Virus genome (UHGV): UHGV-1686243
Direction: 5' to 3' (one strand)
From: a virus
DNA: 24,442 nucleotides
The notes beneath the pieces are model-generated. The model worked only from the letters and a program-made list of their open reading frames with translations. It searched no databases and was not told where the DNA came from. Positions within the stretch are counted from its first letter, which is position 1. Each line of letters opens with the position of its first letter. A program made the position numbers and the translations under genes. Below, one piece after another: positions 5,553 to 24,442 of the stretch.

Positions 5553-5920
5553 TGACCATCTCTGTTTTAGACCGCCTGAAATTAGGTAAAGAGCTATCAG
5601 ATCTAATGCAGGCGCAGAAAACTGCGCCAGTATTGCAACGCGTCACCATTGGTAAGCAGATTGTTGATGTGATGCTGAAATTGGGCCTGGGGACTGCCGC
5701 GCAACCGGCAGCGGAACCGCAACAACAGACTGATCCTGTTGTAGATGAAGTCCCTAAGATAGTGACTGACTTCCTGGGCGGTGTCTTCACAAAGTCCACA
5801 CAAATGGAATTTATTGATGCGCTGCGTGGGATCTCAAACTATGTTGGCGAGTTCCTTACGTTGGAGCAGGCTAAAGAGCAGACCATAAGCTGGGTGAAAG
5901 CTAACGGTTATGCCGGGTAA
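5552..5920 (+). CDS. small hypothetical protein (occupies the DdrA-like position)
   Basis: ATG overlaps the upstream stop (TGATG), with GGAGG 6 nt upstream. The protein is 122 aa with no recognisable motif. Confidence 0.4.
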   Translation: MTISVLDRLKLGKELSDLMQAQKTAPVLQRVTIGKQIVDVMLKLGLGTAAQPAAEPQQQTDPVVDEVPKIVTDFLGGVFTKSTQMEFIDALRGISNYVGEFLTLEQAKEQTISWVKANGYAG

Positions 5921-11386: not shown

Positions 11387-11736
11387 TTAATTTGCTGTTT
11401 CTAAATCGGAATGTATGATCTGCATCATCGACTGAAATCATCCATTGCTGAAATTTTTAGTTGATCTTCCATGTTTTCAGGCTTATATTCATGTCGTCGT
11501 AGCAAATTCTGCGACCGGGTTTAGCAGCCTGAATACGAATGCGGACAACCGCAGATATCCGATATTGCGGTATTTTTGTGTCCGTAAAACCACGTTACGC
11601 CCGAATTATGGTGGGGCGTGATGGGGAGGCTTCGGCCTGCTGGTTTCATTCGTGCCAGTCTGCTAACCCCGTCACGTCCTGCCACCCGTTTAGCAGCGGG
11701 GCGCAGGTTGTTAAACCTACGAATGAGGCCGTAACT

Positions 11737-22332: not shown

Positions 22333-22360
22333 CTAATTTAACAAAGTGACGGGAACAGCA

Positions 22361-23569
22361 ATGAGTCAACACACTGATACTTCTAATCTGGAAATTATCT
22401 CGACAGCAATTGAAACGCTGCGCACACAAATCGCTCTTATACAGAAACGGAATCCGGGTGATGACCTGTCAAAGCGACTGCACGAGAGTGTCATTGCCAC
22501 TACAGATAACCTGGTGGCGGAAATCAACAAGCTGCTTGATGATGGGGCAGTTGATTACAATAAGCTGGTGGATCAGTTTGAGGAATACCAACAAGCCGTT
22601 AATGATGGCTTGATCCGTTTTTCACAAGTCACAGGCGTATCAGCGACAGTTGAAAGCCTGGGCGATGCAGTTAATCAATTTGCCGCGAATATGCGTAATG
22701 AGATCGGCAATCTGGAAGCGCGTCTTGAACAGGCAAATACACTGCGTAAATCTGCCGAAGCCGATTTGAACCGTTACAAAAAAGACTATCCGCCAAGCCT
22801 GACAAAGCGGCTGGATGTTGCGGAGAAGGATAACCGCACGCTGAAAAGAGAGCGCCGGGAACTAAAAGAGCGTTTAACCAAGCTCAATCAGCAATGCATT
22901 GATTATCAAGGCGAAGGCGTCACACTGCGTAAAAAGTTGGCTACAGCGCAGAGCATTATCGAAACATTAAAGCGAGAGTGTTCACAGCTTGGTCACGATC
23001 TGAACCGTGCTTGTGGCATGGGACAAAGACCAGAGACATTTCCACTTATGTATGATGGAAGGGATGCCATTGCCTACATCCATGAGTATCCGCACGGCCT
23101 GGTTGCGGAAACTGGGCAGCGTGGCGAAGCACTGCTGACGGCTAATTACCATCAACAAATCAGAACTAATCGCCTGTTAACGATGGATGTGATCCCATCG
23201 GTATGGGGAACGCCGCTTTACTATCGCCTGCCGGGCTTCGAAAAGGACTGGAATACCGACATAGACGAATGTCTCGCAGATAAAATTATGGCGTACCTGG
23301 AGACGGATTTTCCGCGCTTATATCGCCGGATTATGGACTCTAAGGATGCGCCAATCGATGAATTAAAAATGCGTCCGGAGACGCTGGAGGCAATCAAGCA
23401 GACGGAGTTTGATACTGTATTCAGTGTGGCCTGCATTCCAAGCTGTTTCCATGAAAGCATTCCGTTCATGCAAGGAGATCGTCGTCAGGAAATCATTGAC
23501 GCTTGCCGGGTATGGGCGAACGAATGGGATAAGAAGAATGGGGGTGTAGAAGATCTTTACGGGAAATAA
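22361..23569 (+). CDS. coiled-coil protein of unknown function (403 aa)
   Basis: ATG 22361 is preferred over the GTG 22346 used in the ORF track. N-terminal ~220 aa are heptad-rich; the C-terminal half has no recognisable motif. Confidence 0.55.
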   Translation: MSQHTDTSNLEIISTAIETLRTQIALIQKRNPGDDLSKRLHESVIATTDNLVAEINKLLDDGAVDYNKLVDQFEEYQQAVNDGLIRFSQVTGVSATVESLGDAVNQFAANMRNEIGNLEARLEQANTLRKSAEADLNRYKKDYPPSLTKRLDVAEKDNRTLKRERRELKERLTKLNQQCIDYQGEGVTLRKKLATAQSIIETLKRECSQLGHDLNRACGMGQRPETFPLMYDGRDAIAYIHEYPHGLVAETGQRGEALLTANYHQQIRTNRLLTMDVIPSVWGTPLYYRLPGFEKDWNTDIDECLADKIMAYLETDFPRLYRRIMDSKDAPIDELKMRPETLEAIKQTEFDTVFSVACIPSCFHESIPFMQGDRRQEIIDACRVWANEWDKKNGGVEDLYGK

Positions 23570-23570
23570 T

Positions 23571-23581
23571 GTGTTAGAAAT
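23571..23581 (+). promoter_or_regulatory. GTGTTAGAAAT motif copy
   Basis: Match immediately after the stop of the 407-aa gene. Confidence 0.3.
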
Positions 23582-23726
23582 CTAAAATCACAATTCGAAT
23601 GTATTGATTGTGAAGATGACTTAACATAGAATTTTCCTTGCTGGTGGGCGGTACCCACGTTTCGCTTGCTGGGCTTGATAGTCACTTATTGGTTATTGTT
23701 TGCCCACCAGCAATTAACAAATTAAA

Positions 23727-23737
23727 GTGTTAGAAAA
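23727..23737 (+). promoter_or_regulatory. GTGTTAGAAAA motif copy followed by GTATAGT (-10-like)
   Basis: Exact match in the ORF-poor region. Confidence 0.35.
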
Positions 23738-24221
23738 GTATAGTAAGCCAAGAGCACGCTTTGGCACCGAGCAGACCAAAGTTCAACAGGTTTAGTGCGG
23801 AAAGTGGTTTCAGAGAGAGCACTTTGCGGAGTAAACGACAATACATGTTGAGCCACGGAAGGTCTTTTTAAGGTGTTCATTGATGATGGTCCGGCAGAGA
23901 GTAACGGTACATGCTGCATCTAATCATCAATGCACATCTTCAACATTAAGGAGGCATAGGGATTTTTGTGGCGGTTACCTTTTGCCCTGAGTCTCCTTAA
24001 TGTTGCAGTAATGCACCTATGCGGATGTGGCCTTGCATTGTGTCTTGAAAGAATGGGGTAAGGCCGGGGATATCCCCAGGGGGAGGCACCCCCGCTGCAA
24101 CGAACAGCCACAGACGGCAGTCGAGTGATGGAAACGTGCAAAGACTTTAAACCTCGTTACGGCTGGCGTGGCAAACGCGACAACCGAGACAGAGCGGTGA
24201 CGGGCGGAGAGAGTGCCGCAT

Positions 24222-24343
24222 CAAGAAAGAAGCCGACTTGTGATCCCTTTCAGCGGGCATTTGAAAGTGAATCCAGCTCAGGCAGTCGGCTTCTTTCTTG
24301 TGTGAGATGTAGCGTATTTGCCCATCTTCGGGTGGGCTTTTTT
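24222..24343 (+). ncRNA. candidate small RNA: 17-bp perfect-stem hairpin followed by a UUCG-loop intrinsic terminator
   Basis: CAAGAAAGAAGCCGACT (24222-24238) and AGTCGGCTTCTTTCTTG (24284-24300) are perfect reverse complements. GCCCAUC-UUCG-GGUGGGC plus U6 lies at 24320-24343. No credible ORF. Confidence 0.25.
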
Positions 24344-24442
24344 AGGGTTTTCGTCATGGTTAGCGACTTTGCGGCGGTTTAGAACCCGACCATTAAAGTA
24401 AATGCAAACGATGATCTGATGATGGTAGCGGCCTAAGAAGCC

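What the first reader, a model, noticed from the sequence alone, without database searches (positions are those of the whole stretch)
23878..24005. Twin perfect hairpins, one sequestering a consensus Shine-Dalgarno and framing a 10-codon mini-ORF
CATTGATGAT (23878-23887) pairs with ATCATCAATG (23923-23932). Immediately after, CAACATTAAGGAG (23941-23953) pairs perfectly with CTCCTTAATGTTG (23993-24005). The first arm of the second hairpin carries TAAGGAGG, and the loop holds a GTG-initiated 10-codon ORF (VAVTFCPESP) whose stop lies in the second arm. This resembles a translational attenuator or antisense-RNA target. Both minus-strand ORFs called here look spurious.
Basis: seen in the sequence. 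Interest (0 to 1): 0.5.

Follow-up and report, generated by a model that had tools for sequence, protein, structure and literature searches.

The report
Ribosome-site-locking RNA hairpins, phage-plasmid leader
Two real, conserved RNA hairpins sit in an unannotated, probably repressor-controlled leader transcript of a D6-type (P1-family) phage-plasmid; the second hairpin locks a perfect ribosome-binding site, but the proposed 10-codon leader peptide is not conserved, so this is a modest new example of a known kind of RNA control.

Summary
The window is a phage D6-like P1-family phage-plasmid. The hairpins lie in an ORF-poor stretch between a pmgS-like gene and a tRNA/tciAB cluster, where neither RefSeq nor the D6 record annotates anything.

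Both hairpins are kept in every D6-type lineage I recovered. They show a few compensatory changes and about nine G·U positions that pair only in the plus-strand RNA.

Upstream lie a conserved sigma-70 promoter and two copies of TGTTAGAAA. That motif occurs genome-wide where P1 has C1-repressor operators, so the RNA is probably a repressor-controlled early leader (inferred).

Hairpin 2 (-30.6 kcal/mol) pairs the invariant TAAGGAGG with CUCCUUA; the site is predicted unpaired less than 0.2% of the time.

The 10-codon mini-ORF fails: none of 11 substitutions is synonymous, and several lineages lack its start. A 31-codon hydrophobic TTG ORF (23966-24061) fits better (6 synonymous changes, none at codon position 2). 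It is nevertheless broken in one lineage and in a loop-inversion variant, and it has no homologues.

Both minus-strand ORFs are spurious. No antisense promoter, attenuator terminator or Rfam family was found.

Best reading (about 0.4): a translational lock on a small membrane-peptide ORF. Main rival (about 0.33): a purely non-coding structural or processing module.

The parts
23572..23580 (+). Operator-like motif TGTTAGAAA, copy 1 (candidate D6-type C1 repressor operator)
   Evidence: The motif occurs 6 times in the window against 0.17 expected. The D6 genome has 12 exact copies plus variants, at positions matching P1 C1 operators: c1, lpa, repL, c4, pmgR/S, hrdC-dmt, ref, ppp and the ban leader. 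It is invariant in all 8 aligned lineages. Its role as an operator is inferred by positional analogy, not shown.
23604..23632 (+). Sigma-70 promoter TTGATT-17 nt-TAGAAT; predicted transcript start near 23639-23641
   Evidence: Consensus scan. Both hexamers are invariant while the 17-nt spacer varies across lineages.
23638..23713 (+). 5'-terminal hairpin whose 12-bp perfect arms contain Chi (GCTGGTGG 23640-23647) and inverted Chi (23704-23711)
   Evidence: The arms are invariant and the interior is variable.
23728..23736 (+). Operator-like motif TGTTAGAAA, copy 2
   Evidence: Invariant in the alignment. Together with copy 1 it brackets the promoter, paralleling the bivalent Op72 operator at P1 Pban.
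23870..23940 (+). Hairpin 1: outer 7 bp (23870-76 with 23934-40), core 10 bp (23878-87 with 23923-32), apical helix; the apical part varies in length
   Evidence: Folds. It is 95.5% paired across 17 distinct sequences, with G·U to A-U and U-A to U·G changes and one A-U to G-C double change. The consensus fold recovers it. Indels of 7 + 3 nt in the apical part rule out coding there.
23941..24005 (+). Hairpin 2: clamp of 15 + 5 bp pairing the Shine-Dalgarno with its complement; the loop is hypervariable
   Evidence: -30.6 kcal/mol. It is 96.9% paired. Compensatory changes are A-U to G-C at 23945/24001 and G-C to A-U in the inner stem. The loop is non-homologous between lineages and is exactly inverted in L026 and NZ_CP058619.1.
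23947..23954 (+). Consensus Shine-Dalgarno TAAGGAGG, fully paired
   Evidence: Invariant in all 26 distinct sequences. The probability of being unpaired is at most 0.002 in three transcript contexts.
23966..24061 (+). 31-codon TTG ORF (MWRLPFALSLLNVAVMHLCGCGLALCLERMG); candidate small membrane peptide, unproven
   Evidence: An in-frame start is kept in 5-6 loop variants. There are 6 synonymous and 5 non-synonymous changes: 7 at codon position 3, none at position 2. Against: it is broken in L008 and in the inversion variant, its stop is lost in the L004-type and L176, the spacing from Shine-Dalgarno to start is 7-15 nt, and it has no homologues.
23968..24000 (+).
   Evidence: None of 11 substitutions is synonymous, and the start codon is missing in several lineages.
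24013..24028 (+). Small conserved hairpin GCACC/GG(A)UGU that, with helix 23852-54/24029-31, closes the roughly 180-nt domain
   Evidence: Consensus fold.
24066..24093 (+). Two small G+C hairpins (GGGG-AUAU-CCCC and GGGGG-AGGCA-CCCCC) in a nearly invariant block that extends past the ORF stop
   Evidence: The L006 and L175 variants keep pairing through G·U.
24222..24300 (+). Long hairpin with 17-bp perfect arms
   Evidence: It is replaced by a different hairpin of similar design in the L007 and L008 lineages.
24320..24343 (+). Intrinsic terminator GCCCAUCUUCGGGUGGGC + U6; likely 3' end of the roughly 700-nt leader RNA, and the start of the segment shared with the P1 ban-operon leader

Best explanation
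The twin hairpins are two adjacent helices of a roughly 180-nt structured domain. That domain lies in a roughly 700-nt plus-strand leader RNA of D6-type P1-family phage-plasmids.

The RNA starts at a conserved sigma-70 promoter (23604-23632). Two copies of the lineage's C1-repressor operator-like motif flank the promoter. The RNA ends at the intrinsic terminator at 24320-24343, or reads through into the tRNA/tciAB/lpa operon. It is therefore probably silent in the prophage and made early after induction; this step is inferred.

Hairpin 2 is an intramolecular clamp. The invariant TAAGGAGG pairs with CUCCUUA 40 nt downstream, so ribosomes are kept off in the folded RNA; the sequestration itself is shown thermodynamically and by conservation.

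The only reading frame behind that site with any evolutionary support is a 31-codon hydrophobic TTG ORF. Its own codons 9-13 form the pairing arm. The most likely function is therefore a translational lock on a small membrane-peptide gene, an architecture like that of type I toxin mRNAs. Expression would be limited to a brief co-transcriptional window or to processed RNA; this is also inferred.

Hairpin 1 is a flanking structural helix. It abuts hairpin 2 directly, with no unpaired base between them.
For: Context: the window is 98.5-100% identical to phage D6 and to E. coli plasmids of about 90 kb, and neither those records nor RefSeq annotate anything here.

Direction of transcription: the tRNAs and tciAB downstream lie on the plus strand, and the promoter hexamers are invariant.

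Operator motif: compared with P1 operators.

Structure:
- z = -6.0.
- 95.9% of cells form pairs, against 32-50% for slid controls.
- The consensus fold recovers both hairpins, with 4 compensatory pairs and about 9 G·U positions.
- The plus-strand consensus energy is 40 kcal/mol better than the minus-strand energy.

Lock: the Shine-Dalgarno is predicted unpaired with probability at most 0.002, and hairpin 2 is -30.6 kcal/mol. The core GGAGG/CUCC pairing is invariant, even though the lower stem covaries or is replaced in L006.

ORF: synonymous third-position changes in L003-type sequences; 6 synonymous against 5 non-synonymous changes; none at codon position 2 (binomial p about 0.01-0.04 before correcting for three frames). 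An in-frame start is kept despite unrelated loop sequences.
Against: - The ORF is broken in the most divergent lineage (L008: start lost plus a 1-nt deletion). It is also broken in the loop-inversion variant, which persists in a complete plasmid.
- Its stop is lost in the L004-type (+G) and in L176 (TAA to CAA).
- The spacing from Shine-Dalgarno to start varies from 7 to 15 nt, and the start is TTG or GTG.
- Nucleotide invariance continues about 50 nt past the stop, so coding cannot explain all the conservation.
- U-rich loops give hydrophobic codons in any frame.
- No protein family, and only one predicted protein among 5.8 billion clusters, matches the ORF.
- No mechanism for opening a -30 kcal/mol clamp was identified.
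- Coordinated changes in both arms could arise from template-switch mutation in a palindrome rather than from selection.
- There are no expression data.
Confidence: 0.4

Rival explanations
1. This is a purely non-coding structural module. The hairpins, with the 5' hairpin and the 17-bp hairpin, would be RNase III/RNase E processing or stabilising elements of a long leader. That leader precedes phage tRNAs and other structured RNAs. The Shine-Dalgarno-like sequence would be only a purine-rich stem strand, and the ORF incidental.
For: - The leader has an exceptional hairpin density.
- The stems are 17-20 bp, long enough for RNase III by general knowledge.
- Conservation extends beyond any ORF.
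- The ORF is broken in L008 and in the inversion variant.
- No protein homologues were found.
- tRNA genes follow downstream.
Against: - This reading does not explain why an 8-nt perfect Shine-Dalgarno consensus and its complement are the invariant core, while other stem positions covary.
- It does not explain the three-base periodicity of substitutions.
- No cleavage data exist.
Confidence: 0.33
2. This is the first reader's model: a leader-peptide translational attenuator in which translation of the 10-codon GTG mini-ORF in the loop remodels the hairpin and controls downstream expression.
For: The mini-ORF exists, and its stop lies in the 3' arm. It is present in the window-type, L003-type and L007/L013-type sequences.
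Against: - None of 11 substitutions is synonymous.
- The start is absent in the L004-type, L015, L008 and the inverted variant.
- Its own ribosome-binding site is locked in the same hairpin.
- No terminator or downstream cistron is coupled to it.
- The GTG lies 13 nt from the Shine-Dalgarno.
Confidence: 0.04
3. This is a DNA-level element: a cruciform-forming or recombinogenic inverted repeat, or an invertible switch, rather than an RNA structure.
For: - The arms are a perfect 13-bp repeat.
- The 39-nt interior is exactly inverted in L026 and in plasmid NZ_CP058619.1.
- Both arms change together in the L004-type.
Against: - Only 1 of 116 plasmids carries the inversion.
- The arms are unrelated to the D6 cix sites.
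- About 9 conserved G·U positions would be mismatches in DNA and in the minus strand.
- The element sits in a transcribed leader.
- The inversion is better explained as a sporadic hairpin-loop flip by template switching.
Confidence: 0.06
4. This is a classical type I toxin-antitoxin locus or antisense-RNA target: a cis- or trans-encoded small RNA pairs with one of the hairpins to control the ORF.
For: It has a small hydrophobic ORF and a sequestered ribosome-binding site. The P1 family does use antisense control (C4 RNA).
Against: - No promoter-like site was found on the minus strand.
- No terminator exists for a minus-strand RNA.
- No other complementary sequence occurs in the window.
- The loops, which are the usual first contact point, are hypervariable.
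Confidence: 0.08

Closest known systems
Type I toxin mRNAs with sequestered ribosome-binding sites (hok/sok, tisB/istR-1, aapA1/IsoA1); comparison from general knowledge
   Same: Both have a short hydrophobic ORF of about 30 codons. Both have a highly structured mRNA in which the Shine-Dalgarno is buried in a very stable helix, so translation is off by default.
   Different: No antisense antitoxin gene was found. The ORF is not conserved in all lineages and has no homologues. Toxicity is untested. Control here seems to be transcriptional (repressor operators) plus an intramolecular clamp.
Phage P1 ban-operon leader (Pban with bivalent C1 operator Op72, 'dicF-like region', tRNAs, tciABC, ban)
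   Same: The genomic position, orientation and downstream genes are the same. Window 24317-24442 is 96% identical to P1 68855-68982. Both have a repressor operator pair at the operon start.
   Different: The roughly 700 nt that contain the twin hairpins are absent from P1. They are specific to D6-type elements. The operator sequence also differs (TGTTAGAAA core against ATTGCTCTAATAAATTT).
RNase III-processed hairpins in phage early leaders (lambda N leader, T7 early mRNA sites); comparison from general knowledge
   Same: Both are long, nearly perfect hairpins of 17-20 bp in an early phage leader, one of them overlapping a translation initiation region.
   Different: No processing data exist. 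Cleavage within hairpin 2 would cut the ORF itself rather than expose it.
Leader-peptide translational coupling in IncB/IncI-alpha replication control (repY/repZ); comparison from general knowledge
   Same: Both have paired hairpins, a short ORF, and a Shine-Dalgarno occluded by a stem.
   Different: No downstream cistron is coupled, no antisense Inc RNA exists, and the short ORF is not conserved.
Hairpin-loop inversions by template switching at quasi-palindromes (known from chloroplast non-coding DNA and E. coli mutagenesis); comparison from general knowledge
   Same: Both show an exact flip of the spacer between short perfect inverted repeats, occurring rarely (1 of 116 plasmids).
   Different: Here the flip removes the candidate start codon. 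Whether that has a consequence is unknown.

Membership tests
Any Rfam family (including GOLLD, ROOL, DicF, tmRNA and known leaders) | Covariance-model score at or above the family's gathering threshold | tested here: not met
   A gathering-threshold scan of the window finds only C4 and c4-a1b1 at 11.5 kb. The permissive scan of 23500-24442 gives nothing credible on 23870-24005; the best hits are microRNA models at E of about 1.
Leader-peptide transcription/translation attenuator | A leader ORF conserved as a coding unit | tested here: not met
   None of 11 substitutions is synonymous, and the start is missing in several lineages.
Leader-peptide transcription/translation attenuator | Alternative terminator/antiterminator, or a coupled downstream cistron directly behind the hairpin | tested here: not met
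   No U-tract follows either hairpin. The next terminator is 315 nt away, and no conserved protein gene lies directly behind the hairpins; the tRNA cluster and tciA lie further downstream, beyond the window end.
Type I toxin-antitoxin system | Small (under 60 aa) hydrophobic toxin ORF | tested here: inconclusive
   A 31-codon hydrophobic ORF is present, with a weak coding signature. It is broken in L008 and in the inversion variant.
Type I toxin-antitoxin system | Structured toxin mRNA with a sequestered Shine-Dalgarno | tested here: met
   The Shine-Dalgarno is predicted unpaired with probability at most 0.002, and hairpin 2 is -30.6 kcal/mol and conserved.
Type I toxin-antitoxin system | Antisense RNA antitoxin with its own promoter | tested here: not met
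   No minus-strand promoter-like or terminator-like site is found in 23300-24442, and no complementary sequence occurs elsewhere in the window. The scans are simple, so a weak promoter cannot be excluded.
Type I toxin-antitoxin system | Toxicity of the peptide when expressed | not testable with these tools
   This needs an expression experiment.
RNA thermometer | Weak, imperfect Shine-Dalgarno pairing that melts at 37-42 C | tested here: not met
   The helix has 15 + 5 bp and a predicted -30.6 kcal/mol at 37 C.
Site-specific invertible DNA switch (Cin/Hin-type or inverton) | Recombinase recognition sites, with both orientations common in populations | tested here: not met
   The arms are unrelated to D6 cixL/cixR. 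The inverted orientation occurs in 1 of 116 plasmids.
P1-family C1-repressor regulon | Operator copies at the promoter, and the same motif at the other C1-controlled operons of the genome | tested here: met
   TGTTAGAAA occurs at 23572 and 23728. In the D6 genome it occurs upstream of c1, lpa, repL, c4, pmgS, hrdC, ref and ppp, matching the P1 operator map. Binding by D6 C1 is not testable here.
Protein-coding gene on the minus strand (ORFs 23920-24141 and 23722-23919) | Reading frame kept in homologues | tested here: not met
   Length differences are not multiples of 3, and internal stops occur in 5-6 of 7 other lineages.

The most novel reading that the evidence does not exclude
D6-type phage-plasmids carry a previously unrecognised small membrane-peptide (toxin-like) gene. 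It has no antisense antitoxin. Its only brakes are the prophage repressor and an intramolecular clamp on its ribosome-binding site. It is unlocked during lytic development, for example by RNA processing or co-transcriptional ribosome loading, to help shut down the host. The rare loop inversion would act as a heritable knock-out.
Probability: 0.2. Interest if true: 0.5.

Novelty: new member of a known kind. Interest (0 to 1): 0.3.

Why it matters
D6-like phage-plasmids are common in E. coli, Salmonella and Shigella. The roughly 700-nt leader is unannotated everywhere.

If the lock controls a small membrane peptide, it adds a hidden gene and a simple antisense-free control logic to a well-studied phage family. 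If it is purely structural, it marks a processing or stability module for a phage tRNA operon.

The operator-like motif found on the way gives a testable map of the D6 immunity regulon. None of this is a major surprise for specialists.

Tried and rejected
- Rfam at gathering and permissive thresholds gave nothing for the hairpins.
- Pfam, NCBIfam, PHROGs and PADLOC scans of the 31-, 33-, 63- and 77-aa ORF versions gave no families.
- tblastn against plasmids matched only the same locus in D6-like plasmids.
- A search for other copies or complements of either 5' arm in the window found nothing beyond chance.
The viral and metagenome scans did give true homologues.
- The idea that TGTTAGAAA is a P1-type late-promoter -22 box was rejected. 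The P1 box is AAGTTACTT, and the motif's genome map fits C1 operators instead.
- Cin/cix-mediated inversion was rejected.
- The small GU-rich hairpin 23857-23869 proposed by the consensus fold is sterically impossible in the window sequence (1-nt loop), so I dropped it.
- The P1 genome paper and the D6 genome paper are not held in the library. Literature searches found nothing on this leader.

Full report
**Observation**

- CATTGATGAT (23878-23887) pairs with ATCATCAATG (23923-23932).
- CAACATTAAGGAG (23941-23953) pairs with CTCCTTAATGTTG (23993-24005).
- TAAGGAGG occupies 23947-23954.
- A GTG-initiated 10-codon ORF (23968-24000) ends with a TAA inside the 3' arm.

Both helices are longer than described. 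With G·U pairs, hairpin 1 spans 23870-23940 and hairpin 2 spans 23941-24005, and no unpaired base separates them.

The structures are more than chance would give.
- As RNA, the plus strand of 23860-24020 folds to -60.4 kcal/mol (z = -6.0). The minus strand reaches -48.3 kcal/mol.
- A perfect inverted repeat of 13 nt or more with a short loop is expected 0.02 times per shuffled window. Two are present, both in this stretch.
- Four of the nine strongest local inverted repeats of the 24.4-kb window lie between 23638 and 24300.

**Where it is**

The window is a phage D6-like member of the P1 family of phage-plasmids.
- The 873 nt after the pmgS-like gene (22346-23569) are 98.5% identical to phage D6.
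- The same 873 nt are 100% identical to several E. coli plasmids of about 90 kb.

Downstream in D6 lie tRNA-Asn, tRNA-Thr, tRNA-Ser, tciA/tciB, two small genes, lpa and pacAB. The tRNAs and these genes are on the same strand as the hairpin-forming orientation.

In P1 the equivalent operon is Pban with operator Op72, then a 'dicF-like region', tRNAs, tciABC and ban. Only window 24317-24442 is shared with P1. The roughly 700 nt that hold the hairpins are specific to D6-type elements.

Neither the D6 record, the PLSDB gene table nor RefSeq's annotation places any feature here. No Rfam family matches.

**Transcription context**

A sigma-70 promoter, TTGATT-17 nt-TAGAAT (23604-23632), has invariant hexamers and a variable spacer across eight lineages. 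It would start the RNA at the foot of a 5' hairpin (23638-23713). An intrinsic terminator lies at 24320-24343.

The promoter is bracketed by two copies of TGTTAGAAA (23572 and 23728).
- This 9-mer occurs 6 times in the window against 0.17 expected.
- It occurs 12 times, plus close variants, in the D6 genome.
- The D6 copies sit upstream of c1, lpa, repL, c4, pmgS, hrdC-dmt, ref and ppp. These are the places where P1 carries C1-repressor operators.
- The motif is not the P1 late-promoter box, which is AAGTTACTT.

I infer, but cannot show, that it is the D6-type C1 operator. The leader would then be repressed in the prophage and made early after induction.

**Is it RNA structure, and on which strand?**

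I collected 26 distinct versions of the region from plasmids, IMG/VR contigs and metagenome contigs, at 79-100% identity.
- On 17 distinct sequences, 95.9% of cells in the proposed helices form standard pairs. When partners are slid by 1-3 columns the figure is 32-50%.
- Hairpin 2 has an A-U to G-C double change at 23945/24001, and a G-C to A-U change in its inner stem.
- Hairpin 1 has one double change and several G·U to A-U and U-A to U·G changes.
- RNAalifold recovers both hairpins independently.
- About nine positions are G·U in the plus strand. They would be C·A mismatches in the minus-strand RNA and mismatches in a DNA cruciform.
- The consensus energy is -355 kcal/mol for the plus strand against -315 for the minus strand.

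Divergence is shallow, so the covariation comes from few events. Coordinated changes in both arms of a palindrome can also arise by template switching. The structural case is good but not overwhelming.

**Loops, indels and an inversion**

The apical part of hairpin 1 differs by 7 + 3 nt between lineages. The loop of hairpin 2 exists in at least three unrelated versions.

In IMG/VR contig L026 and in the complete plasmid NZ_CP058619.1, the 39 nt between the arms are the exact reverse complement of the usual sequence. This was found in 1 of 116 plasmids with a match. The arms bear no resemblance to the Cin recombination sites of D6. I read this as a sporadic hairpin-loop flip, not a programmed switch.

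**Coding tests**

The two minus-strand ORFs (23920-24141 and 23722-23919) are interrupted by frameshifts and stops in most other lineages.

The 10-codon mini-ORF fails as a conserved unit.
- Its GTG is missing in the L004-type, L015 and L008 lineages and in the inverted variant.
- None of the 11 substitutions is synonymous in its frame.

A different frame does better. This is the 31-codon TTG ORF at 23966-24061 (MWRLPFALSLLNVAVMHLCGCGLALCLERMG), which starts in the loop. Codons 9-13 of this ORF form the 3' arm.
- Of the same 11 substitutions, 6 are synonymous in its frame, 7 fall at codon position 3, and none falls at position 2.
- All four differences between the window-type and L003-type sequences are synonymous.
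- An in-frame TTG or GTG is kept in five or six loop versions that are otherwise unrelated.

Against the 31-codon ORF:
- It is destroyed in the most divergent lineage (L008) and in the inversion variant.
- Its stop is lost in the L004-type (+G) and in L176 (TAA to CAA).
- The distance from the ribosome-binding site to the start varies from 7 to 15 nt.
- Nucleotide invariance continues about 50 nt beyond the stop.
- U-rich loops produce hydrophobic codons in any frame.
- No family in Pfam, NCBIfam, PHROGs or PADLOC matches it.
- Gene callers predicted it once among 5.8 billion protein clusters.

The coding signal is suggestive, at about p = 0.04 before correcting for three frames. It is not established.

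**The lock**

In three transcript contexts, each base of AAGGAGG is predicted unpaired with probability at most 0.002. Hairpin 2 alone is worth -30.6 kcal/mol.

The GGAGG/CUCC core is invariant in all 26 sequences. The lower stem, by contrast, covaries or is replaced, as in L006. That points to constraint on the sequence as well as on the structure. It is the main reason I favour a real, regulated ribosome-binding site over an incidental stem.

The helix is far too stable for a thermometer. No U-tract follows it, and no minus-strand promoter, terminator or complementary sequence was found. How the clamp would ever open is unknown. Possibilities are a brief co-transcriptional window of about 40 nt, RNA processing, or a helicase.

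**Verdict**

The leader-peptide attenuator and antisense-target readings are not supported.

My best explanation (confidence about 0.4) is a translational lock on a small hydrophobic ORF inside a repressor-controlled early leader. Its architecture resembles type I toxin mRNAs, but it does not qualify as a member of that family. The chief rival (about 0.33) is a purely non-coding structural or processing module of the tRNA-operon leader.

It is an undescribed member of a known kind of element, and of modest interest.

Noticed in passing
window 24404-24436 (context 24347-24442): GCA AAC GAU GAU CUG AUG AUG GUA GCG GCC UAA reads ANDDLMMVAA*. It has the same length and the same ends as the E. coli tmRNA tag ANDENYALAA (tag recalled from memory), and no start codon or ribosome-binding site precedes it.

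Rfam tmRNA_permuted gives a weak hit (E 0.019-0.025, below threshold). The segment is 95-97% identical in P1, P7 and hundreds of plasmids. ARAGORN finds no tmRNA. The consensus fold pairs it with 24347-24365. It may be a tmRNA-like module or a coincidence.
   Followed up: partly
L001 (phage D6) 7405-7470, just after tRNA-Thr; homologous in P1 (L002, about 5660-5730): GGGUAUUUUGCGAC...GGUUCGAAUCCC...AGUACCC looks like a tRNA-like domain: a 7-bp acceptor stem plus a T arm, with no anticodon arm. In P1 it is overlapped by the annotated minus-strand gene plp. Neither ARAGORN nor Rfam calls it.
   Followed up: partly
window 10178(-), 11377, 21280, 22323, 23572, 23728; D6 genome (L166/L167), 12 exact copies: The motif TGTTAGAAA (extended to about TGTTAGAAAAnTAAWTT) marks the positions where P1 has C1 operators. 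It is probably the operator of the heteroimmune D6-type C1 repressor.
   Followed up: yes
window, 12 sites, including 23640-23647(+) and 23704-23711(-): Chi (GCTGGTGG) occurs 12 times in 24.4 kb against 0.68 expected, 9 of them on the plus strand. Two inverted copies form the arms of the 5' hairpin of the leader.
   Followed up: partly
L026 823-890; plasmid NZ_CP058619.1 56035-56139: The 39 nt between the arms of hairpin 2 are exactly inverted. This was found in 1 of 116 plasmids with a match, and it removes the candidate start codons.
   Followed up: yes
window 24222-24343: A hairpin with 17-bp perfect arms is followed by an intrinsic terminator. It has weak sub-threshold resemblance to MicA and STnc240. 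It could be the 3' module of the leader or a separate small RNA. The L007 and L008 lineages carry a different hairpin of similar design.
   Followed up: partly
window 11483-11535 and 11604-11689: Rfam finds the C4 antisense RNA and its a1/b1 target, which is the P1-type immI immunity module.
   Followed up: no
MF356679.1 7145-7850 (L001 7235-7940): The GenBank record of D6 lists the three tRNAs on the record's plus strand. ARAGORN and Rfam place them on the opposite strand, co-directional with tciA.
   Followed up: yes
L001 8050-8170 (upstream of tciA in D6): Sub-threshold match to the STnc100 small RNA/leader family (39.6 bits against a threshold of 47; E 1.5e-6).
   Followed up: no
L009 (NZ_CP100729.1), about 2330-2510; L168: Natural rearrangements. 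In L009, different DNA lying next to an IS91-family transposase gene replaces everything upstream of 23932, which removes hairpin 1 but keeps hairpin 2. In L168, foreign sequence replaces the leader just after the second G+C hairpin.
   Followed up: no
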